43,480 nucleotides of DNA from positions 1 through 43,480 of the forward strand of contig JAGXNO010000033.1 in assembly GCA_019894975.1 (NCBI GenBank), read 5' to 3'. The position numbers and the translations under genes are program-made. The notes beneath the pieces are model-generated. The model did no database searches. It worked only from the letters and a program-made list of their open reading frames with translations, and was not told the DNA's origin. This DNA is from Promethearchaeota archaeon (GTDB taxonomy: Archaea > Asgardarchaeota > Lokiarchaeia > Sigyniarchaeales > SOKP01). Positions 1-27,668 of the stretch are shown here, piece after piece (position 1 is the first letter of the stretch; the number at the start of each line of letters is the position of its first letter).

Positions 1-186
1 GCATTATATCCCCTTGGAACCTTATTTAGAAGTTATATTGTCGGTTTAGGGGGACGAGATGTTACAAGAGATGAATTTGATATAGCTAAGAAGAAAATGA
101 CTACGGTATCAGATATGAAAGGAAAGCTTTATATGTATTTAGGCGTAAGAGAAAGCAAATCGAATATTTTGGGGGTGGATGTGTAA
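1..186 (+). CDS. porA: C-terminal fragment of pyruvate/2-oxoacid:ferredoxin oxidoreductase alpha subunit (5' end outside window)
   Basis: Own translation of frame +1: ALYPLGTLFRSYIVGLGGRDVTRDEF...YMYLGVRESKSNILGVDV* (TAA 184-186). GLGGRD and YLGVRE are typical of the PorA C-terminus, and a beta subunit follows directly. Confidence 0.85.
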   Translation, partial: ALYPLGTLFRSYIVGLGGRDVTRDEFDIAKKKMTTVSDMKGKLYMYLGVRESKSNILGVDV

Positions 187-187
187 A

Positions 188-1276
188 ATGTCACAACCAG
201 AGAGAAATGTTATTAAATTCGAAGATATTTTGGCAAGAGACGGAAAAAGTAATGTATTATTTTTGAATTATGATAATGAAGCATTCATGAACACAGGTAT
301 TCAAGAAAGTGGTGGAACTCCACCTTTCGCTTCAACAACAACGGGTCCAGCAGGCGAGAAAATACCGGGCAAGGTAGGTGTGAAGCAGGACCTTGTGACA
401 CCCTTCGCTTTCTTTGGCTCAAATTCATTATTTTTGGCAACTGCAAATCCTGCTTATCCAAATGATTTTATGGGAAAAATAGCCGATGCTTTAAAATCAA
501 ACGGATCAGCATTTATTCAATCATTTTCTGATTGTATGAGAGGTTGGAGACATGCTTCAGAAGATGCTGTAAAGATATCGAAACTAGCAACTGATTGTGG
601 TTATTGGCCTTTGTATACAATACGTGTGAAGGATGGTATGCCTACTTTTTCATATTATCGAGGATTAGACATTGATAAAGATAAATTTGTTGAGTACCTA
701 AGATCTATGGGTCGATTTAGACATCTTTTTAAACCGAAATTTATGGAAAAAGAAATTGACGATATAATTTATTATACAGAGCAAAGGAATAACAAATTGA
801 AGAAACTAATCAAGACTTTTGGAACAGATAAACCAATTGATCTTTATAGAGTTAATCGTAAATCTTTAGAACCCCAATCACACTTGTTCCCAGGACACGG
901 TCTTTGTCCTGGATGTGGTGCGGGGATGGTTCTAAATCAAATGGCTACAGCTGCTCAAGCAGTTACGGGAAATAATATAATTTATGTAAATAATACATCT
1001 TGCGCAGAAGTATCTACATCTAAAGACAATGTAACTTCTTGGAGAGTTCCCTGGGTTCATCATCTTTTTGAATCAGGAGCTACAGTTGCAGAAGCGATAA
1101 GTACGGCCTATAAAATCCGTAAAACTAAAGGGCAATTTACTGGTGAAGTTCCTTATGTTATTCATATAGGAGGTGATGGCTCAACATATGATATTGGGTT
1201 TCAATTTCTTAAAGCTGCTATAATTAGAACAAGTACTATGGTTGAAATGAATATATACTTAAAAGAACAGAAGTAA
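188..1276 (+). CDS. porB: 2-oxoacid:ferredoxin oxidoreductase beta (ThDP-binding) subunit, circularly permuted
   Basis: Contains YDNEAFMNTGIQESGGTP, ATANPAYPNDF, SDCMRGW and, later, GHGLCPGCG, NTSCAEV, WRVPWVH, GGDGSTYDIG. ATG188 follows the porA stop and a GGGGTGG SD (ORF track starts at 179). Confidence 0.9.
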   Translation: MSQPERNVIKFEDILARDGKSNVLFLNYDNEAFMNTGIQESGGTPPFASTTTGPAGEKIPGKVGVKQDLVTPFAFFGSNSLFLATANPAYPNDFMGKIADALKSNGSAFIQSFSDCMRGWRHASEDAVKISKLATDCGYWPLYTIRVKDGMPTFSYYRGLDIDKDKFVEYLRSMGRFRHLFKPKFMEKEIDDIIYYTEQRNNKLKKLIKTFGTDKPIDLYRVNRKSLEPQSHLFPGHGLCPGCGAGMVLNQMATAAQAVTGNNIIYVNNTSCAEVSTSKDNVTSWRVPWVHHLFESGATVAEAISTAYKIRKTKGQFTGEVPYVIHIGGDGSTYDIGFQFLKAAIIRTSTMVEMNIYLKEQK

Positions 1277-2200: not shown

Positions 2201-2258
2201 GTAATGCTTTATTTTTTTAAAATATTAAATTTCATAATTAGATTGTTTGGTGACTATT

Positions 2259-3326
2259 TTGGATTTAGGTTTTAATTCATTAGCAAATTTAGCAAAAATC
2301 AAAAAGAATGTTAAAAGAAAACGAATTTCTAGCTACGATGTATCCGGTGCAAATATTGACGCGGTACCTATAGACAGTATGCAGAAATATGAGATTTGTA
2401 ATCTTAGTGGTGCTGGAATTATTAAACACATTTGGATGACTCTTGCATCAAAAAGTCCAAATTACTTAAGAGAGATTTTAATAAGAATGTGGTGGGATGG
2501 TGAAGAAAATCCTTCTGTTGAATGCCCAATTGGTGATTTCTTTGGAGTCGGTCATGGAAAAACCGTGAACTTTTGGAGTTTACCATTATCAATGGGACCT
2601 CAAGATGGAAAAGGATTCAACTGTTTTTTCCCAATGCCTTTCTCTAAGAGTGTCAGAATCGAAATCGAGAATGAAAGTGATGAAATATTAATATGTTATT
2701 TCTATATTGATTATGAAGAATATGATGAAATAGATACCACTTTTGGGAGATTTCATGCCTTCTGGAATAGATCGAACCCATGTGAAGGTCAGGATTACGA
2801 GTATCTAAAGAAGAAAAATTTAAAAGCAGAAAGATTTACTAGAAAAAATCCAAGTCATGAAAGTGATTATTTAATCTTAGAGACTGAAGGAGAAGGTCAT
2901 TATGTTGGGTGTCATTTAGATATTCATAATTTATTTGAGACTGAAAGATTCAATTGGCCTGGTGAAGGAGATGATTATATCGAAATTGATGATGCGGAAA
3001 TAAAGCTCTATGGAACTGGAACTGAAGATTATTTTTGTACTGCATGGAGTCCGTTTGAATATTATTGTTCACCTTACTTTGGGATAACTCTTCCAGGTGG
3101 AAAGAATTGGAGTGGTAAAATATCATACTATCGGTATCATATTGAAGATCCTATCTATTTTCACAAAAATATTAAGGTAAAAATAGAACACGGACACGCA
3201 AATCAACGTTCAGATGATTTCTCATCAACAGCATATTGGTATCAAGCAGAACCTCACAAAAAGTTCAAATCCATACTACCTGTAGATAAAAGATTACCAA
3301 GAGAAACACCCAAAGATATAAAATAA
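2259..3326 (+). CDS. DUF2961 / glycoside hydrolase family 172 protein
   Basis: GAGIIKHIWMT, RMWWDGEENPSVECPIGDFFG, NCFFPMPF, WPGEGDD, GTGTEDYF, YRYHIEDPIYF, IEHGHAN, SSTAYWYQ. Likely start TTG2259, 5 nt after GGTGA. Confidence 0.9.
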   Translation: MDLGFNSLANLAKIKKNVKRKRISSYDVSGANIDAVPIDSMQKYEICNLSGAGIIKHIWMTLASKSPNYLREILIRMWWDGEENPSVECPIGDFFGVGHGKTVNFWSLPLSMGPQDGKGFNCFFPMPFSKSVRIEIENESDEILICYFYIDYEEYDEIDTTFGRFHAFWNRSNPCEGQDYEYLKKKNLKAERFTRKNPSHESDYLILETEGEGHYVGCHLDIHNLFETERFNWPGEGDDYIEIDDAEIKLYGTGTEDYFCTAWSPFEYYCSPYFGITLPGGKNWSGKISYYRYHIEDPIYFHKNIKVKIEHGHANQRSDDFSSTAYWYQAEPHKKFKSILPVDKRLPRETPKDIK

Positions 3327-4942: not shown

Positions 4943-5746
4943 TTATAAACCTAACATTTTTCTTGCTTCGGATGGATCTGCTACATCTCGACGAACATGT
5001 TTACAAATATCAATATAATTTCTTATAATTTCAGCATTATTTTTTGCTCGTATATCTTTTTTAATGAAAGGGTAATCTTCCGTTCCTACTCTTATATTGC
5101 CACCGTGGGTAAGGACAAAAACTAAAAGCTTCATTTGATCTTCTCCCATTACACTAACAGTATGAATACTGTTAGAGGGCATGAATTTTTTTCTATACAT
5201 ATATTCTTGATAATTTGGGGGACTCCACAATCCCCCTGGCCAATTGAAGAATAAAGTTAAGATATGCGGATTTGACCATTCTAGTAATTTCTCTTTAATT
5301 AAATAATCTAAATTCCATGAGGATCCAGTATGCCATAATTCCCATTCAGGTTTTATATTAGCTTCTTTTAATTTCACACAATATTCTTCCAATTCCTTCA
5401 TTGGATGTAAAACTTCGATAATTACTTGATCATAATGTTCAGTATGATGATTTAACATAACGGACATCATTTCAGGTTTAGAATCAAAATCTCCCTTTCT
5501 TTGAGAAATTGTCTCACTTGACATACCGGCTTGAATAATAATACCACACCTCTCGCGTATTTTTTTTACAGTCTCAATTTCTTCTCCACGAGGAAGGTGA
5601 ATATGAGCAATCGCCGCTCCAGCTTCATAACATTCTACTACATCATCAATTAATTCTTCAGTAGTTTTTCCCCAATTTTTCACTTCAGGATATACCAAAG
5701 AATTTGCTGTTGTAGCAGTTATTATTATTTTTTGGTTTTCTTTCAT
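4943..5746 (-). CDS. Beta-keto acid cleavage enzyme (BKACE / Kce / DUF849 family)
   Basis: AGAAIAHIH metal motif, KPEWE, GGNIRVGTED, VADPSEARKMLGL. Confidence 0.85.
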   Translation of the reverse strand: MKENQKIIITATTANSLVYPEVKNWGKTTEELIDDVVECYEAGAAIAHIHLPRGEEIETVKKIRERCGIIIQAGMSSETISQRKGDFDSKPEMMSVMLNHHTEHYDQVIIEVLHPMKELEEYCVKLKEANIKPEWELWHTGSSWNLDYLIKEKLLEWSNPHILTLFFNWPGGLWSPPNYQEYMYRKKFMPSNSIHTVSVMGEDQMKLLVFVLTHGGNIRVGTEDYPFIKKDIRAKNNAEIIRNYIDICKHVRRDVADPSEARKMLGL

Positions 5747-11063: not shown

Positions 11064-11633
11064 GTGAGTTATTTAAGGGATAATAAAGTCTGGGAAGAAG
11101 AAGAGGATCTGAACTGGGATGTTATAGAAATTTCGAAAGTAGACGACAAAATTATAGGCTATTTACTTGATAACTTAAAATTGGATAAAATCGATTTATC
11201 TGAAAATTTTTTCATAGCATTTGAAAGTTTGTTAAAGATCGGTAAGAAAGCTCGACATGTACTAAATTCTTATATTAAAGAAACAGATGAAATTCATACC
11301 TTCAAAGTAGATATTTTTAATTTTATGTTAGATTTTATTAATGACAAGGAGGTTGAATATCTTCTGGTACCACAGTTATTTGCACCCGATTTTATTATTA
11401 GAGCCAGAACCATTTTCAAAATTGAACAAGCTGGAGACAAAAAATATTTAAAATTTATTTTACCGTTACTAAACGATCCTGATGATTCGGTTCGATGGGC
11501 TGTTTTGAAATTTCTAGATACTTTTAAAATGGGTAAAAATCCATTGGTTTGCAAAGAACTCAAATGTTTTATAGAAAATGAGTCAAATCCAGTAATAAGA
11601 GAAAAAAGTAAAGAAATCTTTAAAAACTCATAA
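11064..11633 (+). CDS. HEAT-repeat protein
   Basis: APDFIIRART, LLNDPDDSVRWAVLKFL, ESNPVIREKS repeats. Confidence 0.75.
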   Translation: MSYLRDNKVWEEEEDLNWDVIEISKVDDKIIGYLLDNLKLDKIDLSENFFIAFESLLKIGKKARHVLNSYIKETDEIHTFKVDIFNFMLDFINDKEVEYLLVPQLFAPDFIIRARTIFKIEQAGDKKYLKFILPLLNDPDDSVRWAVLKFLDTFKMGKNPLVCKELKCFIENESNPVIREKSKEIFKNS

Positions 11634-14140: not shown

Positions 14141-14671
14141 ATGTCTCATTACGATTACACATTTAAGATTCTGCTTTTAGGAGATGCATCCGTTGGGAAA
14201 ACATCGTTCACTAAACGCTACTGTTATAATATATTTAACCCAAGTGAAAGATTAACTATCGGTGTTGACTTTCATGTTAAAACAATTGAACTGAATAATA
14301 CAAAAATAAAGCTTCAGATATGGGATGTCGGTGGAGAAGAACGGTTCAGATTCCTTTTACCAACTTATTGCTTAGGTTCTAATGCAGCATTTCTACTATA
14401 TGATATAACGAGACCTTCTACACTAGATAATATTTCAGAATGGATGACAATCGTTAGACAAAAGGGAGGACCTATACCCATAATGCTTGTAGGCTCTAAA
14501 GCTGATCTTTCGGAGATTTCTCGAGAAGTTCCGAGAGAATATGGCATTCAAATCGCTGAAAAAAATAATATGGCTAGTTTTGTTGAAATTTCAGCAAAAG
14601 AAAACGTAAATGTTGATGAAGCTTTTAAAGTTCTTACTGATCTTACATTAGAAAAGACAAATGACAGGTGA
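14141..14671 (+). CDS. Rab-like small GTPase (Ras superfamily)
   Basis: G1 GDASVGKT, G2/RabF1 TIGVDF, RabF2 KLQIW, G3 DVGG, RabF5 LLYDIT, G4 SKAD, G5 EISAK; no C-terminal prenylation tail. Confidence 0.95.
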   Translation: MSHYDYTFKILLLGDASVGKTSFTKRYCYNIFNPSERLTIGVDFHVKTIELNNTKIKLQIWDVGGEERFRFLLPTYCLGSNAAFLLYDITRPSTLDNISEWMTIVRQKGGPIPIMLVGSKADLSEISREVPREYGIQIAEKNNMASFVEISAKENVNVDEAFKVLTDLTLEKTNDR

Positions 14672-15641: not shown

Positions 15642-17204
15642 TTAACCTTTTTGTTCTCTCTTTTGTTTTGCAATTAAAGCTTTTCCGAACTTTTCAAGCA
15701 TCGCACGAGGTGTTACTGGGTAATCTTCTTGTCTTTCAAATCTTTTCAAATTTTTCTTAATACCAAATAAATACTTGGAGATATCTTTAAGCTTCTCAAG
15801 TGGATATCTTCCCATCATTGCAATTGTCTCCATCTGTGGTGACCCTCCTCCGTGCAATCCCGCGACTTGAAGAAGGCCTGCAATATCAGAACATCCAATA
15901 CACTCAATTCCTTTAAAACATTTTAGAACATTTTCCGGGGTTATCCTTGGATTTCTCTGCATATATTTCATTGCTAATGGTCCAACTTCTTTGTTATAAA
16001 ATGTATCTAGATAAGGTAGAGTTGCCATTAGTCCTCCTGCTAAATCAGCTAAAATCTTGTATTCTTCATATATTCGTTCCCCTGCAAGTTTACGACCCGC
16101 ATTTGTAAGAATCTCATCTGGAACTTGCGTACCAGAAGGAGCTCTTTCAGAATGAAGTGCACTTGATTCACCCGCAGCAAAAACCAATTCTGCTGTTCCT
16201 AAGATATGTGAAAGCTTATCTCTTACATGAGAGGTGTTATGAATTCCATTGTACTCGGCAACTAAAGCGGCCGCACTAGCCAAAACTTCTGACATTGCTG
16301 CCTTACATCCTGAATAAGAATGACGATGATAATGTGCAAACATTAAGGCTAAAAATCCCGCATAAGGTGTTTGTTTATGATCTGCATGACCATTCAAAAA
16401 AATTCGCTCGTTAGGGATGAAGACATCATCAAATATTATAAATGTCTCACAGTCTCCGAGAGCTAGGGCTGCTGATTTCATATTCTCTGGTACATTTTTA
16501 GGTTGATGAAAATATGCAGGTCTTACTAATAATTTCACTCCCTCCCAGTCAGCTGGAATTGCGAAGGCAACGGCATAATCATGATCATCTGGCATCATCA
16601 TTCGACAAGGAACCGCTATTATCTCATGTACATAAGGTGTATTGGTGATACAACATTTTGCACCCCGAACGATAATTCCATCATCTCTCGTTTCAACAAC
16701 TCGTAAATAAGCATCTGGATTTTCCTGTTGAGATGGACGTTTTAAGCGATCCCCTTTAACATCAGTCGAGGCACAAGAACCGGCTAAATCATTCTCTTGG
16801 AAATGTTTTAAGAATTTTTTAAAGTTTTCATAATATTTTGTCCCCAATGATTGATCACATTCATAAGTAATAACAGAAAGAGCATTAAGCGCATCTATTC
16901 CCATACATCTTTGAATGCATCCTGAAACTCTATGGCATAACACTCGTGTCATTCTTTGTTTTTTAAATAAATCTTCTTTATTCTGATGGATATGACAAAA
17001 TCGATTTATCTTTTCTCCAGTTAAATGAGATGTTGCCGTACATAAATCTTCAAATTTCTTATCGTGAGCAAGTTCGTATGTCTCGCGTAGAATATTAATC
17101 CCACCACGTATGCGAGGATCATCACGACCAACTACTTCATCACCTATCCAAATATTCTTTTTCATTGAATAAAGTGACTCAAGGTATTCTTCAAATGTTT
17201 TCAT
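15642..17204 (-). CDS. abfD: 4-hydroxybutyryl-CoA dehydratase-like protein (HpaB/AbfD family)
   Basis: [4Fe-4S] ligand motifs CIQRC and HRHSYSGC, TDVKGDR, DGIIVRGAK, LHGGGSP. Confidence 0.82.
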   Translation of the reverse strand: MKTFEEYLESLYSMKKNIWIGDEVVGRDDPRIRGGINILRETYELAHDKKFEDLCTATSHLTGEKINRFCHIHQNKEDLFKKQRMTRVLCHRVSGCIQRCMGIDALNALSVITYECDQSLGTKYYENFKKFLKHFQENDLAGSCASTDVKGDRLKRPSQQENPDAYLRVVETRDDGIIVRGAKCCITNTPYVHEIIAVPCRMMMPDDHDYAVAFAIPADWEGVKLLVRPAYFHQPKNVPENMKSAALALGDCETFIIFDDVFIPNERIFLNGHADHKQTPYAGFLALMFAHYHRHSYSGCKAAMSEVLASAAALVAEYNGIHNTSHVRDKLSHILGTAELVFAAGESSALHSERAPSGTQVPDEILTNAGRKLAGERIYEEYKILADLAGGLMATLPYLDTFYNKEVGPLAMKYMQRNPRITPENVLKCFKGIECIGCSDIAGLLQVAGLHGGGSPQMETIAMMGRYPLEKLKDISKYLFGIKKNLKRFERQEDYPVTPRAMLEKFGKALIAKQKREQKG

Positions 17205-17974: not shown

Positions 17975-18961
17975 ATGAATGAAGAAGTAACTCCAGAAAA
18001 AATTCAAAAAAGTTTTCTAGATGGGGATATAAGTAGAGAAGAAACTACTGATCTTTTAATCTCATTAATTAATGGGAGTGAGGATGCGAAAATCCGAACA
18101 GCAAGCATTAATGTATTGGAAGAAGTAGATTTTAAGGATGAAAATATTTTTAAAATACTTGAAAATCATTTAATTTCTGATGAGGATGCTAATGTTAGAG
18201 CTTCAGCAGCAAGAGTTATAATCCTTAACTTTCAAGATGAAGGATTAGAACCTTTAGAATGGACAACCAAGCATGATAAATCACCACTAGTTATAAAAGC
18301 GATTTTGGATACCTATGAGATTAAGAACATCCCAAATCATGAAGAACTCAAGAAAAATATAAATAAATTGTTAGATACTTTTGCTTTAAATTTAGGAGTT
18401 GTATCCGAAGAAGCTAGGTTTTTTTTGGATTTAGAAGCTATTTTTTCTAATGGTACGAAACAAAAAGAAATTAATCCATTAGATTATAATAAATTTAAAA
18501 CATTGAATAATTGTATGGATCAATCTCCCTGGTTGGTTATCAAAAATATGCGCGTTGAGGTTCTTAACCTTAATTTTTTCAACTGGGGTTATATAAAACA
18601 AAATGAGGAGCTTTTTAATTCCTTTTCAAGGTTGAAATATTTAGACGTTTATCTCAACAATATTAGAAAATATAATATACCTAACTTTGATCTTGTTGGT
18701 GTTCCTAAATCAATTGGTCTCTTAACATCTCTTAAGAAGTTAAAACTATCAAGAAATAATCTTCACAGCATTCCTGAATCAATAAAAAATTTACATTTGC
18801 TTTTAGAATTAGATTTAAGTCATAATCAATTTCAAGAAATTCCTCACTTTTTAAAACCCCTTACCTCACTTGAGCACTTAAATATGAAATGCAATAATAT
18901 TCTAAGCGTTCCCGAATCAATGAACAATTTTGTGAATTCTATTGTAGATTTCAGACTATAA
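17975..18961 (+). CDS. HEAT-repeat + leucine-rich-repeat protein
   Basis: N-terminal SEDAKIRTASINVL and DEDANVRASAARVI; C-terminal LRRs LKKLKLSRNNLHSIPESI, LLELDLSHNQFQEIP, LEHLNMKCNNILSVP. Confidence 0.88.
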   Translation: MNEEVTPEKIQKSFLDGDISREETTDLLISLINGSEDAKIRTASINVLEEVDFKDENIFKILENHLISDEDANVRASAARVIILNFQDEGLEPLEWTTKHDKSPLVIKAILDTYEIKNIPNHEELKKNINKLLDTFALNLGVVSEEARFFLDLEAIFSNGTKQKEINPLDYNKFKTLNNCMDQSPWLVIKNMRVEVLNLNFFNWGYIKQNEELFNSFSRLKYLDVYLNNIRKYNIPNFDLVGVPKSIGLLTSLKKLKLSRNNLHSIPESIKNLHLLLELDLSHNQFQEIPHFLKPLTSLEHLNMKCNNILSVPESMNNFVNSIVDFRL

Positions 18962-19040
18962 TAATGGGTTTTAGTAAGATATTTAAATTTTAAAATTGAG
19001 TTTACTATCAATAACAATTTTTATTTATGTAGTGTTGATA

Positions 19041-20750
19041 ATGTCAAGTCCGAAAAAAATTAAGGGTGGAGATGTTTTAGTCAAATGTCTCCTAGAAGAA
19101 AATGTTAAATATATGTTTGGCATTGTTGGGGGGCAATTATTACCAATATTTGATGCGGTTCATCGCTGGGGAAGAGAAAAAGGCATAGATACGGTAATGT
19201 TTCGACATGAGCAAGCCGCAGCACATGCAGCAGATGCATGGGCTCGGTTGACTAATACTCCCGGTGTGTGCATGGGTACAGTCGGTCCTGGTGCTCTTCA
19301 TTTAGTTCCAGGAGTGGGTGCCGCATGGGCAGATAATATCCCAGTTGTGGCAATAGTACCTCAAGTTAATATTGACGTAGAAGATAGTTTTGCTTTGCAG
19401 GGGAATTTAGATCAGATTTCTTTATTTAAACCAATTACGAAATATCAGAAAAGTGTAAGGAAAGCTGAAGAAATTCCTGATGCAGTTCAAAAAAGTTTTA
19501 GAGAAGCCACTGGTGGGCGTCCAAGACCTGTATTATTAGAAATTTATCCTGATGCTCTTGGTGAGAGAGTGAATGAATCTGAAATTCCAATTTTAAAAGC
19601 AGCACAATACAGATCTTTAACTAAACCTGCAATTCCAAAAGATTCAGTAAAGGAGGCATTAGAAATATTGTTAAACGCTAAAAAACCTTTAATTGTATCT
19701 GGGGGTGGAGTTTCTCGATCAGAAGCCTGGAATGAATTAACTGAATTTGCAGAACATTTACAAATTCCTGTGATGACCACAGTTATGGGAATTGGAACAA
19801 TGCCAAATACTTCAAAAGCGTACTTAGGATTTTCTATGTCGATTGCTAGCTACTTTGCAACCAGTCAAGCAGATGTAGTTTTAGCCCTGGGTTGCAAGTT
19901 CTCTTTCACGCTAAGATATGGGAAACCACCAGTTTGGAATAAATCACAAAAACTAATCCATGTTGATATTGATCCAACTATAATTGGTAGAAACAAACCA
20001 ATTACAATGGGTATCGTAGGTGATTGCAAGTTATTTCTAGAACAAATCCTTGAAGAAGCAAAAAAATCCCCAAAAATAGAAAATAGAGAATGGTTAGACT
20101 CTCTTACTAACAATAGAAAAAGTATAATAAAATCAAGAGCAAGCGTTGCTTCTAGTGATGAGATCCCTATAAAAGCTGAAAGAATGGTTAAAGACGTTTA
20201 TGACTTTATGGATGAAGATGCCATTCTAATTATTGATGGAGGGAACCTTGCTGTGCAGGCTTTAGAGCAGATAGATTTCTATAAACCACGAGAACCACTT
20301 TCAACTCTTCAAGCTGTTGGTATGGGTCATCTTGGAACTTCTATTCCATATGGGATTGCTGCTAAGCTGGCTAAGCCAGATAAACAGGTAATTTCAATTT
20401 CGGGTGATGGGAGCTTTATGATTAATATCCATGATTTAGAAACTGCTGTAAGACTTGGTTTAAAAAACCTTATATTCGTTGTTGGGAATAATAATGCATG
20501 GGGAATGATAAAAACTGAACAAGAATTCCGCTATCAAAAACGATATATAGATGTAGATTTTCCAGATTTTGATTATGCTAGATGTGCTGAAGGTTTTGGT
20601 TGTTATGGTGAAGTTGTAACAGATCCTAAAGAAATTACTGCCGCCCTTAATAGAGCAAAAAACTCAGGTAAACCTGCTGTACTTGATATAAAAATTAAGT
20701 ATGATGTTCCTGAATTTATGAAATTAGTGACAAGCCAAGGTGGCTTATAA
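19041..20750 (+). CDS. ThDP-dependent enzyme, acetolactate synthase / 2-hydroxyacyl-CoA lyase-like (paralog 1)
   Basis: FRHEQAAAHAADAWAR, TVGPG, ThDP motif GDGSF...NNNAWGMIK. Confidence 0.9.
   Translation: MSSPKKIKGGDVLVKCLLEENVKYMFGIVGGQLLPIFDAVHRWGREKGIDTVMFRHEQAAAHAADAWARLTNTPGVCMGTVGPGALHLVPGVGAAWADNIPVVAIVPQVNIDVEDSFALQGNLDQISLFKPITKYQKSVRKAEEIPDAVQKSFREATGGRPRPVLLEIYPDALGERVNESEIPILKAAQYRSLTKPAIPKDSVKEALEILLNAKKPLIVSGGGVSRSEAWNELTEFAEHLQIPVMTTVMGIGTMPNTSKAYLGFSMSIASYFATSQADVVLALGCKFSFTLRYGKPPVWNKSQKLIHVDIDPTIIGRNKPITMGIVGDCKLFLEQILEEAKKSPKIENREWLDSLTNNRKSIIKSRASVASSDEIPIKAERMVKDVYDFMDEDAILIIDGGNLAVQALEQIDFYKPREPLSTLQAVGMGHLGTSIPYGIAAKLAKPDKQVISISGDGSFMINIHDLETAVRLGLKNLIFVVGNNNAWGMIKTEQEFRYQKRYIDVDFPDFDYARCAEGFGCYGEVVTDPKEITAALNRAKNSGKPAVLDIKIKYDVPEFMKLVTSQGGL
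20547..20599 (+). repeat. 53-bp segment identical to 22375-22427 (ThDP paralogs 1 and 2)
   Basis: atagatgtagattttccagattttgattatgctagatgtgctgaaggttttgg read at both positions. Confidence 0.85.
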
Positions 20751-20865
20751 AGAGTTTATATTTCAAATTTTTCACTTCTTTTTATTTATTATATACTTTT
20801 TTATATATCAAAAACTAAGATTATAATCATCTATTATAATTATTTTAAATTATTAGGTGATCAAA

Positions 20866-22584
20866 ATGGGCGAACAAAAAAAAAACATTAATGGAGGAGA
20901 TGTATTAATAAAATGTCTTCTCCAAGAAAACGTTAAATATATGTTTGGCATTCCTGGTGGACAATTATTAAGTATGTATGATGCTGTTTATCGATTTGGT
21001 AGGGAGCAAGGTATAGATACCGTAATGTTTCGGCATGAACAAGCAGCAGCACATGCTGCAGATGCATGGGCAAGATTAACAAACAAACCAGGAGTATGCT
21101 TTGGGACAGTAGGACCCGGAGCAACTCATCTCGTTCCTGGTGTTGCTGCAGCGTGGGCAGATAATATACCTGTTATAGCTATTGTCCCTCAAGTTGATAT
21201 CGCTTTAGAAGATACTTTTACATTACAAGGAAATCTAGATCAAGTATCTTTATTTAAGCCAATTACAAAATACCAAACAAGTATAAGAGAGTTAAATAAA
21301 ATACCGGACGCAGTTCATAAAATATTTCGGGAAGCAACCGGAGGAAGACCACAACCTGTATTATTAGAAATATTTCCAGATGCATTGATTGAGCAGATCA
21401 ATGAAGAAGATCTTCAAATTCTCCAAATACAACAATATAGGGCATTAAATAAGCCAGCAATTTCTAAAGATGCAATTAACAAATCACTCGATTTATTATT
21501 GAATGCTAAAAGGCCTTTGATTGTGTCAGGTGGGGGTGTTTCACGTGCGGGGGGATGGGATGAATTATTAGAATTCGCAGAATTTTTACAGATTCCTGTG
21601 ATGACAACAGTTATGGGAATAGGCACGATGTCAGCGACATCTAAATGTAACCTTGGAGCCGCAATGAATAATGCAATTTTTCAAGCAACTAGTCAGGCAG
21701 ATGTAGTTTTAGCTCTCGGATGCAAATTTGGGTTCTCTATGGGTCATGGTAAATCACCAACTTGGAATAAATCCCAAAAAATGATACAGGTTGATATTGA
21801 TCCCACAATAATTGGACGTGCTAAGCCAATAGCATTAGGTATTGAAGGGGATTGCAAAATATTCCTGAAACAAATTCTTGAAGAAGCAAAGAATACTAAA
21901 AAAATTGAAGAAAGAGAGTGGACGGAGAATCTAGCTAAAAGTAGGAGGAGTGTAGTTGATTCAAAGAAAAACGTAGCTTCAAATGATGAGATACCAATAG
22001 ATCCTCAAAGAATGATTAAAGATGTATTTGAATTTATGGATGATGATGCATCATTAATTCTTGATGGAGGAAATATTGCTTTTTATGCCTTAGAGCAGAT
22101 AGATTATTATAAACCTCGTCCACCAATTTCAACACTTCAATCAATCGGAATGGGTCATCTGGGGGTATCTATACCTTACGGAATTGGAGCAAAATTGGCA
22201 AGACCGGATAAACAAACAATCGCTATTGCGGGTGATGGGGCTTTTATGATAAATATTAATGATCTAGAAACTGCGGTAAGACTTGGTTTGAAAGATTTAA
22301 TATATATTGTTGGAAATAATAATGCATGGGGGATGATTAAAGTTGGGCAACAATATGGGTATCAACAGCGTTACATAGATGTAGATTTTCCAGATTTTGA
22401 TTATGCTAGATGTGCTGAAGGTTTTGGGTGTTATGGGGAGGTTGTAACCGATCCAAATGAAATCACACCTGCTCTTAATAGAGCTAAGAACTCGGGTAAA
22501 CCAGCAGTATTAGATGTTAAAACTAAATATGCTACTCCTGATGTTCTTATGTTATTGTTTTCATTGGGCCATTATTTTAGATAA
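20866..22584 (+). CDS. ThDP-dependent enzyme, acetolactate synthase / 2-hydroxyacyl-CoA lyase-like (paralog 2)
   Basis: Same motifs as paralog 1 (RHEQ, GDGAF...NNNAWGMIK); ATG 5 nt after GGTGA. Confidence 0.9.
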   Translation: MGEQKKNINGGDVLIKCLLQENVKYMFGIPGGQLLSMYDAVYRFGREQGIDTVMFRHEQAAAHAADAWARLTNKPGVCFGTVGPGATHLVPGVAAAWADNIPVIAIVPQVDIALEDTFTLQGNLDQVSLFKPITKYQTSIRELNKIPDAVHKIFREATGGRPQPVLLEIFPDALIEQINEEDLQILQIQQYRALNKPAISKDAINKSLDLLLNAKRPLIVSGGGVSRAGGWDELLEFAEFLQIPVMTTVMGIGTMSATSKCNLGAAMNNAIFQATSQADVVLALGCKFGFSMGHGKSPTWNKSQKMIQVDIDPTIIGRAKPIALGIEGDCKIFLKQILEEAKNTKKIEEREWTENLAKSRRSVVDSKKNVASNDEIPIDPQRMIKDVFEFMDDDASLILDGGNIAFYALEQIDYYKPRPPISTLQSIGMGHLGVSIPYGIGAKLARPDKQTIAIAGDGAFMININDLETAVRLGLKDLIYIVGNNNAWGMIKVGQQYGYQQRYIDVDFPDFDYARCAEGFGCYGEVVTDPNEITPALNRAKNSGKPAVLDVKTKYATPDVLMLLFSLGHYFR

Positions 22585-22647
22585 ATATTTAAAAACTAGC
22601 AACAAAATTAACAATTATTACCTAAATTTAGAAATACGGTGAAAAAT

Positions 22648-24360
22648 TTGGCAGAAGAAAAAAAAATGATTAATGGTGGAGACGTTTTGGTTAAATGTCT
22701 TCTCCAAGAAAATGTGAAATATATGTTTGGCATTCCAGGTGGTCAGTTTCTCAATATGTATGATGCAATATATAAATGGGGTAAAGAAAGTGGTATAGAA
22801 ACCATACTATTTAGGCATGAAGCTTCTGCTGCACATGCTGCTGATGCATGGGCGAGAGTTACAAATACTCCTGGTATATGCTTTGGAACTGTAGGTCCTG
22901 GCGCTTTGAATTTAATAGCAGGTGTAGGTGCTGCGTGGGCAGATAATATCCCCGTCATTGCTATCGTACCCCAAGTCAATTCAAAATTTCAAGATTCTTT
23001 CACTTTACAGGGAAATTTAGATCAAATTACAATGTATAAACCGATCACTAAATATCAAAAAAGCATTCGCAAATTAGAGGAAATACCTGATGCTGTCCAA
23101 AAGGTATTTAGAGCTGCTATGGGAGGACGGCCTCAACCGGTACTACTGGAAATTTTTGAAGACGCTTTTCTTGATGATATAGAAGAAAATAAACTGGAAA
23201 TTCTTGACGTTAAGAGGTATCGAGCTCTGGAAAATCCAAGTATTAGCCAAGATATAGTCAAAAAAGCAATAGAACTTTTAACAACAGCAGAAAAACCCCT
23301 AGTAATAGCTGGTGGTGGTGTAGCCCGAGCAGAAGCATGGAATGAATTAAAAGAATTCGTAGAATATTTACAGATTCCTGTAATTACAACTGTAATGGGT
23401 ATCGGCACAATAACAAATAAATCAAATTGCTTAATGGGAGCAGCAGTTGCGGGACCAGGCTTGAAAGCTGCACCAGAAGCTGATGTAATATTGGCTCTTG
23501 GATGCAAATTTTCATACACACTAGCTCACGGAGAAGAACCTTTTTGGAAAAATACTCAGAAACTAATCCAAGTGGATATTGATTCTTCAATAATAGGAAG
23601 AGCAAAACCACTTACACTAGGTATTGTTGGTGATGCAAAACAATTCTTACTTCAAATTGTTGAAGAAATAAAAGCTATTAAAAAAGTGGAAAAACGAGAA
23701 TGGTTGGAAGAACTTGCTACAATACGAGACAACACAAGAACCAAAATACACAAAAAAATCATGAAAGATAAAATACCTATTCTCCCTAAAAGGTTGATTA
23801 AGGAAGTATTAGAAGTCATTGATGAGGATGGAATACTTGTTTTAGATGGTGGTGATATTTCAACGAGCGCAATTGAACAAGTAGATTGGTACAAGGATAG
23901 AAAACCACTCTCAACTCTCATAGCTGTGGGTATGGGACAATTAGGTACCGCTGTACCCTATGGGATTGGAGCAAAATTAGCAAAACCAGACAAACAAGTA
24001 GTTGCCATAGCTGGTGACGGCGCCTTTTTGATAAATGTTCAAGATTTGGAAACTGCGGTAAGACTAGAATTAAAAAATCTGATTTACGTTGTAGCAAATA
24101 ATAATGCCTGGGGAATGATCAAATCAGGACAAAAACTTTTCATGGGAAAGAGATATATTGATGTCGATCTCCCCGAGTTTGATTATGCAAAATGTGCAGA
24201 AGGTTTTGGATGTTATGGTGAAGTTGTAACAGATCCTAATGAGATAAAAGGCGCCTTTGAAAGGGCAAAAAACTCAGGGAAGCCTGCGGTATTGGATGTG
24301 AAAATAGGCTTTGACACACCAGACACCACTAAGTTAATGGGTAGTATGGGGATACTTTAG
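22648..24360 (+). CDS. ThDP-dependent enzyme, acetolactate synthase / 2-hydroxyacyl-CoA lyase-like (paralog 3)
   Basis: RHEA, GDGAF...NNNAWGMIK; TTG 5 nt after GGTGA. Confidence 0.9.
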   Translation: MAEEKKMINGGDVLVKCLLQENVKYMFGIPGGQFLNMYDAIYKWGKESGIETILFRHEASAAHAADAWARVTNTPGICFGTVGPGALNLIAGVGAAWADNIPVIAIVPQVNSKFQDSFTLQGNLDQITMYKPITKYQKSIRKLEEIPDAVQKVFRAAMGGRPQPVLLEIFEDAFLDDIEENKLEILDVKRYRALENPSISQDIVKKAIELLTTAEKPLVIAGGGVARAEAWNELKEFVEYLQIPVITTVMGIGTITNKSNCLMGAAVAGPGLKAAPEADVILALGCKFSYTLAHGEEPFWKNTQKLIQVDIDSSIIGRAKPLTLGIVGDAKQFLLQIVEEIKAIKKVEKREWLEELATIRDNTRTKIHKKIMKDKIPILPKRLIKEVLEVIDEDGILVLDGGDISTSAIEQVDWYKDRKPLSTLIAVGMGQLGTAVPYGIGAKLAKPDKQVVAIAGDGAFLINVQDLETAVRLELKNLIYVVANNNAWGMIKSGQKLFMGKRYIDVDLPEFDYAKCAEGFGCYGEVVTDPNEIKGAFERAKNSGKPAVLDVKIGFDTPDTTKLMGSMGIL

Positions 24361-24401: not shown

Positions 24402-25433
24402 ATGAGTTGTAATATGAAAGGAGTAATTTTTGAAGGAAAACACAAAGTTTCTCTTCGTGATGATCTAACAAAACCAGAAATGGAACAAGACGAAGTACTA
24501 ATTAATGTGAAGAAAGTTGGTATTTGCGGGACAGATGTCGGTTCTTACGAGAAAGGGGGACCCTATTTCCCTGACAAAATAATTGGTCATGAATTTTCAG
24601 GAGAAATTGTTGAAATTGGGAAAACAGTTAAGAAATTAAAGATCGGGAAAAGAGTAACTGTAAATCCTCAGAAGCCTTGTGGTGAATGTTATTATTGTTT
24701 CCATCATCAAGAAAATATGTGTAAATTGCAAAATTATGCATTAGGTACAACTGAAGATGGAGCTATGAGAAATTTCATTAATGTAAAAGCAGAAAGAGTA
24801 CATGTTTTGCCTGATAATGTATCCTATGAAAATGGAGCAATTGTTGAACCTCTATCTATTGCATTAAATGCTGTTATAGAATCAGGTTTTAAGATTGGTG
24901 AATATGCAACCGTTATGGGTGCAGGTCCAATTGGATTATTTGTGATTCAAATACTACGAGTTGCCGGAGCTAAAAAAATCTTTGTTTTAGAACCTGTTGA
25001 ATCAAAACAACAAAAAGCGCTTGAAATGGGAGCAGATAAAGCATCTGATCCAAAAAATTGGGCGAGAATAAGACGATCAACTGAGGGTTTAGGCCCTGAT
25101 CATATCTATGATTGTGTGGGACTTTCATCAACAATTAGTACTTCTCTCTCCCTCATTAAGAAAGGTGGTTGTATCACATTAATCGGTATGCACTCTAACT
25201 CCTTTGAAATTAATAATGCTTTACTTCTGACAACAAACAGTATAACACTAAAAGGTGTTTATGGCTATACTCAAGATATTTTTAAGACCGCAATTAACTT
25301 ACTAGAACAAGGTAAAATAGATGGGGGATCGATAATTTCAAGCCATATCGCAATCGAAGAGGTACCTCGAATGTTTGAAAAGTTGTCTAATCCTCCTCAT
25401 GATGAATTGAAGGTTATTGTAGATATTGAGTAA
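24402..25433 (+). CDS. Zinc-dependent alcohol dehydrogenase (MDR family)
   Basis: GICGTD, GHEFSG, structural Zn site CGECYYC...C, GAGPIG. Confidence 0.93.
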   Translation: MSCNMKGVIFEGKHKVSLRDDLTKPEMEQDEVLINVKKVGICGTDVGSYEKGGPYFPDKIIGHEFSGEIVEIGKTVKKLKIGKRVTVNPQKPCGECYYCFHHQENMCKLQNYALGTTEDGAMRNFINVKAERVHVLPDNVSYENGAIVEPLSIALNAVIESGFKIGEYATVMGAGPIGLFVIQILRVAGAKKIFVLEPVESKQQKALEMGADKASDPKNWARIRRSTEGLGPDHIYDCVGLSSTISTSLSLIKKGGCITLIGMHSNSFEINNALLLTTNSITLKGVYGYTQDIFKTAINLLEQGKIDGGSIISSHIAIEEVPRMFEKLSNPPHDELKVIVDIE

Positions 25434-25543
25434 AAGACAACTTATCCACTTTTTTATTAATTTTTTCATAAAAATATTTTAAGAATTTGAACTAATACTT
25501 ATTATAAATTCAATTTTATTATTTACCTTAGAGATATAAGATT

Positions 25544-26824
25544 ATGATAAATAAAAAAGGAGAAGTTCAATGTATTAATGATGAAATACTTGAAAAATTG
25601 AGTCTAAAACATCGGTATAATTTTCTAAACAACAATTTAATGAGTATTCTAAAACCTGAAGCTTTTAATTTTCTTAAAAAGACCCAAAAATTTTTTCTTC
25701 GGTTTGAAAAAAATAATAATATAACTCATAATGAAGATTTCTATGATTGGATTCCCGAAATAGGAAACGCAGGATTAGTTACCAGAGTAAGCAACTTTAA
25801 AGAAATAGGTTTAAATTATGAACCTCATGGGATGATAGCAGAATTTATGAGATGTCTTGCTACTGATTTTTTCGACCCTCAATTTGCTATGGGGGTTGGA
25901 GCCAATGTTCTATGTGTTAATCCTTTAATGTTTCATCATGGAGACGTCGATGAACGATTAAAAGCCCTTAAAGATTTGGTTACTGGACAAAAGATTGGAT
26001 GTATTTGCATTACAGAACCAGAAAGAGGTTCCGATGCTGTACATATGCAAACCACTTGTAAAGAGAATGAGGATGGTAGCTATATTTTGAATGGTGAAAA
26101 AATATACCAAACTAATGGTGTTAAAGCAGATTTAGCGATAGTATATGCTGTTGCAGAACAAAATAATGGGAATACAATGGCTCAATTGTTAGTAGATACA
26201 ACATGGGACGGTTGGAATGTAGAAAGATTAAATATTCCCTGGACGCCTCGAGTTTTCATAGGTAAAGAGACGTTTACTAATTTGAAAGTTCCAAAAGAGT
26301 ATATATTGGGCAAAGTCGGACGAGGAAGAGAGCACCTATTTGAAGGTTTAAATCTGGAAAGGTTAGGAATAGTTCTCCTTAACATTTCAGAAGCCTGGAA
26401 TGCAATTTCTCATGCAACAATATATGCGAACATGAGAAAACAATTTGATCAAGAAATATTAAAATATCAAGGAGTAGGCTTTCCTTTAGCAGATATGTGG
26501 GCTAAAACTATGAGTTTAACTTTAGCAGCATTGCACATTTGTCAAATTATAGATGAAAAAATGGAACAATTTGGGACTCTTCCCCAGAATTTTAATCTAG
26601 CTCTTGTTGCAACTGCTTCTCAATTGAAATCTCAGAGTGCTGAATTAACTGAACGTGTATGTTTTGGATGTGCTGATCTAATGGGTGGAGCAGGTTTGTG
26701 TGACAACACACTAATGAGTGATTTATTAGGAATTTCAAGAATTCATCGAGTTGGTGGAGGAACATCCCAAATACAAAAGTATATTATGAGTCTTGCCCTA
26801 CGGCAATTGTTTAAGATGCTTTAA
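25544..26824 (+). CDS. Acyl-CoA dehydrogenase family protein
   Basis: CITEPERGSD, LNGEKIYQTNG, GLNLERL, RKQFDQEI, GGAG, VGGGTSQIQ. Confidence 0.9.
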   Translation: MINKKGEVQCINDEILEKLSLKHRYNFLNNNLMSILKPEAFNFLKKTQKFFLRFEKNNNITHNEDFYDWIPEIGNAGLVTRVSNFKEIGLNYEPHGMIAEFMRCLATDFFDPQFAMGVGANVLCVNPLMFHHGDVDERLKALKDLVTGQKIGCICITEPERGSDAVHMQTTCKENEDGSYILNGEKIYQTNGVKADLAIVYAVAEQNNGNTMAQLLVDTTWDGWNVERLNIPWTPRVFIGKETFTNLKVPKEYILGKVGRGREHLFEGLNLERLGIVLLNISEAWNAISHATIYANMRKQFDQEILKYQGVGFPLADMWAKTMSLTLAALHICQIIDEKMEQFGTLPQNFNLALVATASQLKSQSAELTERVCFGCADLMGGAGLCDNTLMSDLLGISRIHRVGGGTSQIQKYIMSLALRQLFKML

Positions 26825-26846
26825 TTTATAATTGGGTGGAGTTTGT

Positions 26847-27668
26847 ATGAAAATTGAAGATTTAAGTGAAATTATATATGAAAAAGAAGAAAATGGAATA
26901 TGTACCATTACTCTTAATATTCCAAAGAGGAGAAATGCGTTATCCTTTGTTACATTTTTAGAACTTTGGACTGCGATTGACGATATGGAAAAAGATAAGA
27001 ATGCTAAGGTACTCATAATAACTGGTTGTAAGGAAGCTAACGCTTTTTCTTCGGGGGGTTATTTTAATATGAAATATGTTACATCTATTCCTCCAGAAAT
27101 TATGGAAGAAGTCGATCTAATGGATATCGCTCAGAAAAGATTATGTATGAAACTTTGGAATTTTAATAAACCTGTTATTGCTGCTATCAATGGATTAGCT
27201 GTTGGTGTGGGGATTACAATGCCTTTAGTTGGTGCTGATTTAATATATATATCAGAAGATGCATGGCTAGGGTTTTATTTCGTAAAACGCGCAGTGATAC
27301 CTGAATTTAGCTCTTCATTTGTACTTCCATTCTTAATAGGCTTTCACAAAGCAAAGGAAATAATCTTTTTTGGTGACAAAATCCCCGCTCATGAAGCAGA
27401 GCGGCTTGGATTAGTAAATAAGGTATTAGCTCCTGATGATTTAATGTCTTATGCAAGAGAACAAGCTTTCCGTTTAATTCCCCCCAAAGCTCCCTCCCTC
27501 TCTCTCAATCGAACGAAAAGAGTAATGCATGATTATTTCAAAGATGTTATATCAAAAACATTAGATTTAGAAAATGAAGCACTTAGAGCGTCGTTTGAAA
27601 CTAGTGATTTTAGAGCAGCCACAAAATCTCTTATTACCAAGAAAGAACCTGTATTTAAAGGGAAGTAA
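26847..27668 (+). CDS. Enoyl-CoA hydratase/isomerase (crotonase) family protein
   Basis: ITLNIPKRRNAL, AFSSGG, KPVIAAINGLAVGVG, IPE, AERLGLVNKV, PVFKGK. Confidence 0.9.
   Translation: MKIEDLSEIIYEKEENGICTITLNIPKRRNALSFVTFLELWTAIDDMEKDKNAKVLIITGCKEANAFSSGGYFNMKYVTSIPPEIMEEVDLMDIAQKRLCMKLWNFNKPVIAAINGLAVGVGITMPLVGADLIYISEDAWLGFYFVKRAVIPEFSSSFVLPFLIGFHKAKEIIFFGDKIPAHEAERLGLVNKVLAPDDLMSYAREQAFRLIPPKAPSLSLNRTKRVMHDYFKDVISKTLDLENEALRASFETSDFRAATKSLITKKEPVFKGK

What the first reader, a model, noticed from the sequence alone, without database searches (positions are those of the whole stretch)
188..1276. Circularly permuted 2-oxoacid:ferredoxin oxidoreductase beta subunit, cut inside the ThDP-binding motif
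Established: canonical PorB/VorB runs CxxC ... TxC ... WxVPW ... GGDG-x~25-YDNE-MNTG ... C-GW. Seen here (numbering from the 179 ORF): the second half comes first (YDNEAFMNTG aa 31-40, SDC119MRGW) and the first half comes last (C243PGC246, TSC275, WRVPWVH, GGDG aa 331-334), with the ORF ending ~30 aa after GGDG. Each motif and all four [4Fe-4S] cysteines occur exactly once, with no frameshift, and the gene sits in the normal position after porA. The GDG and Asn parts of the Mg/ThDP motif are therefore on opposite termini. Inference: a natural and probably functional circular permutation of a core metabolic enzyme, e.g. by duplication and trimming. I am not aware of this having been described.
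Basis: partly seen in the sequence, partly recalled or inferred. Interest (0 to 1): 0.85.

Follow-up and report, generated by a model that had tools for sequence, protein, structure and literature searches.

The report
Circularly permuted PorB in Lokiarchaeia
This Loki-type Asgard archaeon, like about 80% of sampled genomes of its class, encodes the thiamine- and iron-sulfur-binding subunit of a pyruvate-type ferredoxin oxidoreductase with its two halves in swapped order; the swap is real, old, under selection, and I found it in no paper.

Summary
The gene at 188-1276 (+) matches PorB (PDB 9bt4_C) in two non-collinear blocks: residues 231-350 equal PorB 5-115, and residues 25-195 equal PorB 118-281. 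The cut lies between the helix after GDG and the strand before DNE.

It is not an assembly artefact. More than 100 full-length homologues (51-91% identity) come from independent assemblies, including the closed genome of cultured Promethearchaeum syntrophicum MK-D1 (DSAG12_00808).

Among 399 other Asgard genomes, 129 of 160 in the same class carry it. Outside the class only 1 of 239 does, on a 2.8-kb contig that is probably mis-binned.

After un-permuting, the family forms one clade on a long stem. dN/dS is 0.04-0.06. All four cluster cysteines, GDG and DNE are invariant.

In relatives the operon is a fused porGD, then porA, then the permuted porB. In MK-D1 the gene is transcribed at the level of its neighbours and serves as the PFOR beta subunit in the published metabolic model, with no remark on the permutation.

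A PorA-PorB model did not dock. Five literature searches found nothing. This scan has flagged the same family many times on other genomes.

The parts
1..186 (+). 3' end of porA (last 61 codons plus stop TAA at 184-186), cut off by the contig start
   Evidence: 66% identical to residues 347-405 of the PorA encoded next to the permuted porB in L006. The window is G000:C102:1-43480.
188..1276 (+). Circularly permuted porB (362 aa from the ATG at 188; the ORF from the ATG at 179 is 365 aa and gives the residue numbers used here)
   Evidence: Orthologue starts are. dN/dS is 0.036-0.064.
188..244 (+). New N-terminal extension (aa 4-22). It has no counterpart in canonical PorB and is modelled as a short strand (9-13) plus helix (14-18).
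   Evidence: It lies outside both HMM blocks. AF2 pLDDT is about 96 for residues 11-20. It is only 29% identical to distant orders, against 60-66% for the cores.
245..763 (+). Former C-terminal half of PorB (aa 23-195). It holds the strand plus Y31-DNEAFMNTG40 (Asn33 is the second Mg/ThDP ligand), the fourth cluster Cys119 in SDCMRGW, and WPLY.
   Evidence: It matches PorB 118-281 of 9bt4_C and HMM positions 120-297. VIA-align gives Z 10.4-12.4 to 9bt4_C and 1b0p_A. N30-E34, N38-G40 and C119 are invariant.
764..868 (+). Junction (aa 196-230): the old C-terminal helix joined to the old N-terminus, about 16 residues longer than the two canonical ends together
   Evidence: It is modelled as helix 190-214 plus strand 215-224 with block-mean pLDDT 84-95. 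Identity to distant orders is 35%.
869..1228 (+). Former N-terminal half of PorB (aa 231-350): PGHGLC243PGC246G, TSC275, WRVPWVH, G331-GDG334 and the helix that follows
   Evidence: It matches PorB 5-115 of 9bt4_C and HMM positions 6-124. C243, C246, C275 and G332-D333-G334 are invariant.
1229..1276 (+). New C-terminal extension (aa 351-365) and stop codon
   Evidence: It has no counterpart in canonical PorB. Identity to distant orders is 24%. pLDDT is 53-70.

Best explanation
The gene encodes a functional beta subunit (ThDP-binding PP domain plus proximal [4Fe-4S] cluster) of a POR/VOR-type 2-oxoacid:ferredoxin oxidoreductase whose chain is circularly permuted. The chain starts at the strand that carries the Asn ligand (DNE) and runs through the old C-terminal half. 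A structured junction of about 35 residues then leads into the old N-terminus. The chain ends just after the GDG strand and its helix. The cut sits in the helix-to-strand loop of the GDG-x28-N motif. From general knowledge of the PP-domain fold, that loop lies on the side of the sheet away from the cofactor, so the same three-dimensional site can form from the two chain ends (inferred). Asp333 and Asn33 would bind Mg-ThDP. Cys243, Cys246, Cys275 and Cys119 would bind the cluster. PorA supplies the pyrimidine-binding domain, and a fused gamma-delta subunit supplies CoA binding and the two ferredoxin-type clusters. What is shown: the permutation, its single origin within class Lokiarchaeia, purifying selection, invariant ligands, the operon, and transcription in MK-D1. 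What is inferred: correct folding of the site, catalytic activity, and the substrate (pyruvate or another small 2-oxoacid).
For: Non-collinear alignment to solved PorB and OOR beta and to a canonical HMM. More than 100 full-length homologues at 51-91% identity from independent assemblies, including closed genomes of MK-D1 and Ca. Harpocratesius repetitus. 129 of 160 same-class genomes against 1 of 239 outside the class. One clade with SH-aLRT 100 on a stem of 0.87 after un-permuting. dN/dS 0.036-0.064 against seven same-genus orthologues. C119, C243, C246, C275, G332-D333-G334 and Y31-D-N-E34 are invariant in 60 diverse members. The beta-only AF2 model has pTM 0.86 and mean pLDDT 80.9 with a confident junction, and its C-half matches PFOR domain VI at Z 10-12. 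The operon is porGD fusion, porA, permuted porB in L006 and L008. The partner PorA is collinear with 9bt4_B (7e-54) and keeps the ITPQT Thr, VESE Glu and SARA Arg. Its model matches PorA and OOR alpha at Z 36-38. MK-D1 DSAG12_00808 has RPKM 286, against porA 372 and canonical porB DSAG12_00252 382 (PMC7015854).
Against: No enzyme assay or structure exists. About 19% of same-class genomes lack the gene, including 98-100% complete ones (G179, G182, G199, G206, G267, G270), so it is dispensable where canonical OFORs remain. The sequential structure aligners matched only one half at a time, so I could not check the relative placement of the halves against PorB independently of AF2's own confidence. 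The read-through PorA-PorB model did not dock (pTM 0.51; rmsd about 20 A to PFOR when both parts are aligned). In this window the operon is cut by the contig end, so the partner genes are not seen here.
Confidence: 0.85

Rival explanations
1. Assembly artefact: a chimeric or mis-joined contig, for example collapse of a tandem porB pair, produced a false gene order.
For: The gene lies 178 bases from a contig end in a MAG with 8.6% estimated contamination.
Against: The same order and length (about 362 aa) appear in more than 100 clusters from NCBI, JGI, ENA and Logan assemblies. It is also found in single-contig genomes of 3.3-6.0 Mb and in the closed genome of cultured MK-D1. The junction itself is conserved (L210 and Y223 invariant).
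Confidence: 0.01
2. Decaying or non-functional remnant of a rearranged porB.
For: About 19% of same-class genomes lack it, some of them 98-100% complete. NCBI labels it 'hypothetical protein'.
Against: dN/dS is about 0.05. The frame is intact across orders that are 51-59% identical. All cofactor ligands are invariant. It is co-transcribed at the level of its neighbours.
Confidence: 0.03
3. Functional but re-purposed. The permuted subunit still binds its cofactors, but the derived complex (fused gamma-delta, permuted beta, long stem branch) acts on a different substrate or has altered assembly or cofactor loading compared with ordinary POR.
For: The clade sits on a long stem (0.87 substitutions per site). 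All NCBIfam equivalog scores are far below cut-off: PorB 218 against 405 and PorA 296 against 550. Two rearrangements distinguish the operon from the canonical porG-porD-porA-porB of other Asgard families. The genomes also keep canonical OFORs.
Against: The PFOR-type Thr, Glu and Arg of PorA are kept, and the OOR-type Arg of IRPYT is absent. Nothing in the sequence points to a specific new substrate.
Confidence: 0.1
4. Inter-chain complementation. The N-terminal DNE strand of one beta chain completes the GDG site of a second beta chain (domain swap) rather than closing within one chain.
For: The termini sit at the cofactor motif, and OFORs are dimers of heteromers (general knowledge).
Against: The AF2 monomer model closes within the chain with pTM 0.86. 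No evidence for a swap was found.
Confidence: 0.03

Closest known systems
PorB, beta subunit of the four-subunit pyruvate:ferredoxin oxidoreductase of Methanosarcina acetivorans (PDB 9bt4 chain C; NCBIfam NF008819)
   Same: All sequence blocks match, roughly 40-45% identical within blocks by eye from the printed alignments. It has the same four cluster cysteines, the same GDG and DNE-MNTG ThDP/Mg residues, the same gene position after porA, and the same fold for each half.
   Different: The order of the halves is swapped, with the cut at PorB 116/117 inside the GDG-x28-N motif. The permuted protein has 19-24 new residues at the N-terminus, 15 at the C-terminus, and a junction about 16 residues longer. 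It scores 218 bits against a 405-bit cut-off.
Oxalate oxidoreductase of Moorella thermoacetica (PDB 5c4i, 5exd, 5exe)
   Same: A three-gene architecture with a fused subunit combining the gamma and ferredoxin-type delta domains. The Loki porGD matches NF045790 over 52-315. The beta subunit matches in the same two blocks. The alpha model matches 5c4i_D at Z 37.6.
   Different: OOR beta is collinear. The Loki PorA has the PFOR-type ITPQT rather than the OOR IRPYT, so oxalate is unlikely to be the substrate.
Canonical porG-porD-porA-porB operons of other Asgard families (L069-L072)
   Same: Same gene order and same subunit families. Identity is 31-38% for alpha and 35-45% for beta within blocks.
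   Different: Gamma and delta are separate genes there, and beta is collinear at 307-328 aa.
Domain-order variation among ThDP enzymes (PYR and PP domains in different orders or on different chains, e.g. transketolase versus pyruvate decarboxylase). This comparison is from general knowledge, not tested here.
   Same: Evolutionary reshuffling of the ThDP-binding modules without loss of the shared active-site geometry.
   Different: Those cases move whole domains. Here the cut lies inside one PP domain and inside its signature motif.

Membership tests
OFOR beta subunit, PorB/VorB type (NCBIfam NF008819/NF008818; Pfam PF02775 TPP_enzyme_C) | Contiguous ThDP/Mg2+ motif GDG-x(about 28)-N(N/E) in that linear order | tested here: not met
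   The residues are present and invariant (G332-D333-G334; D32-N33-E34), but the Asn part precedes GDG by about 300 residues. The 53 canonical homologues have a near-constant spacing of 28 residues (28 to 30).
OFOR beta subunit, PorB/VorB type | Four cysteine ligands of the proximal [4Fe-4S] cluster (CxxC, C, C..GW) | tested here: met
   C243, C246, C275 and C119 each occur once and are invariant in 60 diverse members.
OFOR beta subunit, PorB/VorB type | Collinear full-length match above the curated HMM cut-off | tested here: not met
   NF008819 scores 217.6 bits in two stretches against a cut-off of 405. PF02775 scores 21.9 bits, exactly at its cut-off, and covers only the second half of the profile.
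OFOR beta subunit, PorB/VorB type | PP-domain fold | tested here: inconclusive
   The AF2 model has pTM 0.86. Its C-half matches PFOR domain VI at Z 10.4-12.4, and its N-half matches 6n2n_B at only Z 4.6. The aligners are sequential, so both halves could not be superposed at once.
OFOR beta subunit, PorB/VorB type | Encoded next to porA and gamma/delta subunit genes | tested here: met
   The 3' end of porA abuts the gene in the window. The full porGD-porA-porB* operon is present in L006 and L008.
OFOR beta subunit, PorB/VorB type | 2-oxoacid:ferredoxin oxidoreductase activity with bound ThDP | not testable with these tools
   No biochemical data found. There is only transcription in MK-D1.
Oxalate oxidoreductase (NF045792 beta, NF045791 alpha) | Equivalog score above cut-off and the oxalate-binding Arg in the alpha IRPYT motif | tested here: not met
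   Beta scores 187 against 590 and alpha 145 against 500. The alpha subunit has ITPQT.

The most novel reading that the evidence does not exclude
The permutation is not a neutral scar but changes how the enzyme is built. With the Mg/ThDP ligands on the two chain ends, held by lineage-specific terminal extensions, the cofactor site would close last, like a clasp. That could alter ThDP loading or exchange, assembly with PorA, or stability, and it could explain why Lokiarchaeia keep this derived enzyme (fused gamma-delta, permuted beta) beside canonical OFORs.
Probability: 0.12. Interest if true: 0.75.

Novelty: new variant of a known kind. Interest (0 to 1): 0.6.

Why it matters
OFORs are central to anaerobic carbon and amino-acid metabolism. 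The 2-oxoacid oxidation step is the core of the published syntrophy model for MK-D1 and of its eukaryogenesis scenario (PMC7015854). The subunit assigned there as PFOR beta turns out to be a natural circular permutant cut inside the GDG...N signature that defines ThDP enzymes.

This gives three things:
- A natural test of how much the linear order of that motif matters.
- A ready-made marker, since the trait is nearly confined to class Lokiarchaeia.
- A concrete annotation fix. NCBI calls the protein 'hypothetical' because the curated HMMs score each half separately and fall below cut-off, so pathway reconstructions that rely on those HMM-based labels would miss this enzyme.

Tried and rejected
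1. Traces of duplication and trimming. I searched the terminal extensions (aa 1-22 and 351-365) of 106 family members against a canonical PorB HMM. Scores equalled those of shuffled controls, and the hits did not fall at the expected HMM positions.

2. A second copy of the old N-terminus, suggested by an earlier scan note. A position-specific score built from 49 canonical N-termini gave the new N-extension no more than shuffles (mean -4.2 against -2.9). The test has low power, because the true old N-terminus at the junction scored only weakly as a positive control.

3. Split-gene intermediates. Several short database proteins begin near the cut site. They look like truncated calls or the C-terminal parts of intein-bearing genes (P0213), not split porB genes.

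4. Intein origin. Inteins occur in canonical PorB right after GDG, about 16 residues upstream of the permutation cut, so the sites differ.

5. PorA-PorB docking. I modelled a read-through chain (porA stop TAA read as Gly in L060) with a mixed alignment. The first alignment (A2) misplaced the PorA rows; A4 was sound. The model had pTM 0.51 and a poorly predicted PorA domain I. When both parts were aligned to PFOR the rmsd was about 20 A, so the test is uninformative.

6. Foldseek and VIA-align are sequential, so neither could superpose both halves on PorB at once.

7. I looked for the rest of porA elsewhere in this assembly and did not find it.

8. A synteny check with the DUF2961 neighbour in genomes lacking the gene was uninformative.

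9. Five literature searches found nothing on the permutation.

Full report
**Observation**

The window is the first 43,480 bases of contig C102 of a 3.9-Mb, 175-contig MAG. An open-ended frame at 1-186 encodes the last 61 residues of a PorA. It is 66% identical to the PorA encoded beside the same gene in a relative. The ORF at 179-1276 follows (365 aa). Orthologues start at MSQPERN/MSKPERN, so the real start is the ATG at 188, one base after the porA stop.

Moorella oxalate oxidoreductase beta shows the same pattern. An HMM of 53 canonical homologues splits the protein the same way, at HMM 6-124 and 120-297. Those canonical proteins all run CxGC, GDG, DNE, CxxGW with a near-constant 28-residue GDG-to-DN spacing (28 to 30). 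The circular permutation, with its cut inside the ThDP/Mg motif, is therefore real.

**Not an artefact, not decaying**

A word-indexed search of 5.8 billion proteins returned more than 100 full-length homologues of about 362 aa. They are 55-89% identical with 97-99% coverage and come from NCBI, JGI, ENA and Logan assemblies. All 106 full-length ones have the swapped motif order.

Exact look-ups identify orthologues in the closed genome of cultured Promethearchaeum syntrophicum MK-D1 (DSAG12_00808, QEE14985.1, 'hypothetical protein') and in Ca. Harpocratesius repetitus. Against seven same-genus orthologues, dN/dS is 0.036-0.064. dS is 0.9-1.9, close to saturation, but the ratio is clearly far below 1.

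In 60 diverse members the four cluster cysteines (C119, C243, C246, C275), G332-D333-G334 and Y31-D-N-E34 are invariant. The new terminal extensions and the junction evolve faster: 24-35% identity to distant orders, against 60-66% for the two cores.

**Distribution and origin**

I searched 399 other genomes of the phylum. A full-length match (E below 1e-100, or a contig-end fragment at over 80% identity) is present in 129 of 160 genomes of the same class. By family: f1 107/134, f2 1/1, f3 12/14, f4 4/4, f5 1/3, f6 2/2, f7 2/2.

Outside the class it is present in 1 of 239 genomes. That one is G075, on a 2.8-kb contig at 82% identity, which is most simply a mis-binned contig. Several 98-100% complete same-class genomes lack the gene.

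An exhaustive HMMER scan of 1.84 billion cluster representatives found only this family with a single collinear stretch: P0122 (a Helarchaeota MAG, 53% identity) and one junction-spanning fragment (P0123). Most other hits among the best 150 have the canonical order in two stretches; the other single-stretch hits are short fragments of this family or canonical pieces covering one half.

After un-permuting, 27 family members form one clade (SH-aLRT 100) on a long stem of 0.87 substitutions per site among 53 canonical relatives. This genome's own two canonical PorB genes fall elsewhere in the tree. The nearest canonical relatives by score are from Altiarchaeales and Bathyarchaeia. The event therefore happened once, at or before the base of the class.

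How it happened is open. Neither terminal extension shows a detectable remnant of a duplicated segment.

**Context and partners**

In relatives the operon is a fused porG-porD gene (317-330 aa; POR plus two Fer4 motifs), then porA (about 405 aa), then the permuted porB. Other Asgard families carry the canonical four-gene porG, porD, porA, porB operon with a collinear beta of 307-328 aa. Two rearrangements therefore mark the Loki operon.

The partner PorA is collinear with 9bt4_B (7e-54). It keeps the ITPQT threonine, the VESE glutamate and the SARA arginine, not the IRPYT of oxalate oxidoreductase. Its model matches OOR alpha and PorA at Z 36-38.

NCBIfam ranks PorB first, but at 218 bits against a 405-bit cut-off. 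Pfam TPP_enzyme_C sits exactly at its threshold and sees only the second half of the domain. That explains the 'hypothetical protein' label.

In Imachi et al. 2020 (PMC7015854, Supplementary Tables 3 and 4), DSAG12_00808 is listed as VorB/K00170 and used as the PFOR beta of the metabolic model. Its RPKM is 286, against 372 for porA and 382 for the canonical porB DSAG12_00252. Gene order is not remarked on.

**Structure**

An AF2 model of the window protein, built with 60 family sequences, has pTM 0.86 and mean pLDDT 80.9. Confidence is low only in the loop at 35-67, which in solved enzymes faces ThDP and PorA (that last point is from general knowledge). The junction is confident, and so is a short strand and helix in the N-terminal extension.

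Sequential aligners match the former C-half to PFOR domain VI (1b0p_A Z 12.4; 9bt4_C Z 10.4). They match the former N-half only weakly (6n2n_B Z 4.6).

I also modelled a read-through PorA-Gly-PorB chain from L060. It had pTM 0.51 and did not place beta on alpha as in PFOR (rmsd about 20 A), so it says nothing either way.

**Mechanism**

Shown: the permutation, the ligand set, selection, the operon and transcription.

Inferred: the helix-to-strand loop between GDG and DNE lies away from the cofactor in the PP-domain fold. Cutting there and joining the old ends can therefore keep the Mg-ThDP site (Asp333 plus Asn33) and the cluster site (three Cys from one half, one from the other) intact. The complex then works as an ordinary small-2-oxoacid:ferredoxin oxidoreductase.

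**Novelty**

Five full-text searches found no description. This scan has flagged and confirmed the same family on many other genomes, so it is not new to the scan. I class it as a new variant of a known enzyme kind.

Noticed in passing
window 18996-24360 (+): Three tandem paralogous ThDP enzymes of the acetolactate-synthase type (584, 575 and 573 aa; TPP_enzyme_N/M/C). A Zn-alcohol dehydrogenase, an acyl-CoA dehydrogenase and an enoyl-CoA hydratase follow at 24402-27668.
   Followed up: no
window 14141-14671 (+), 17975-18961 (+), 11064-11633 (+): Eukaryote-like signature genes typical of Asgard archaea: a Ras-family small GTPase (PF00071, 1.4e-45), an LRR plus HEAT protein, and a HEAT-repeat protein.
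   Followed up: no
window 36078-39266 (-) and 34266-36032 (-): Opp-type ABC ATPases with long N-terminal regions that have no Pfam match. ABC_tran starts at residue 739 of 1062 in one and at residue 280 of 588 in the other. The 950-aa ORF at 31175-34027 (-) also has no Pfam match.
   Followed up: no
P0126 (Altiarchaeales, 852 aa), P0154, P0213, P0161: Canonical PorB homologues carrying LAGLIDADG inteins. In P0126, P0154 and P0213 the intein sits right after GDG, between GDG and DNE and about 16 residues upstream of the Loki permutation cut. In P0161 it sits after DNE.
   Followed up: partly
L027 = G075:C23:1-2801: A genome of another Asgard family holds a 2.8-kb contig with porA and a contig-end fragment of the permuted porB, 82% identical to the window's gene. 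It is probably a mis-binned contig rather than a transfer.
   Followed up: partly
L006, L008, L037, L043, L060 versus window 184-190: In several of the 42 loci examined (nine in frame, five with strict stop-ATG adjacency), porA and the permuted porB are in the same frame and separated only by the stop codon (TAA in the five strictly adjacent loci). In the window they are one base out of frame.
   Followed up: partly
window 2247-3326 (+), 4943-5746 (-), 15642-17204 (-): A DUF2961 protein (1.6e-79), a beta-keto acid cleavage enzyme (BKACE) and a 4-hydroxyphenylacetate 3-hydroxylase-like HpaB protein lie near the oxidoreductase gene. No operon link to it is evident.
   Followed up: no
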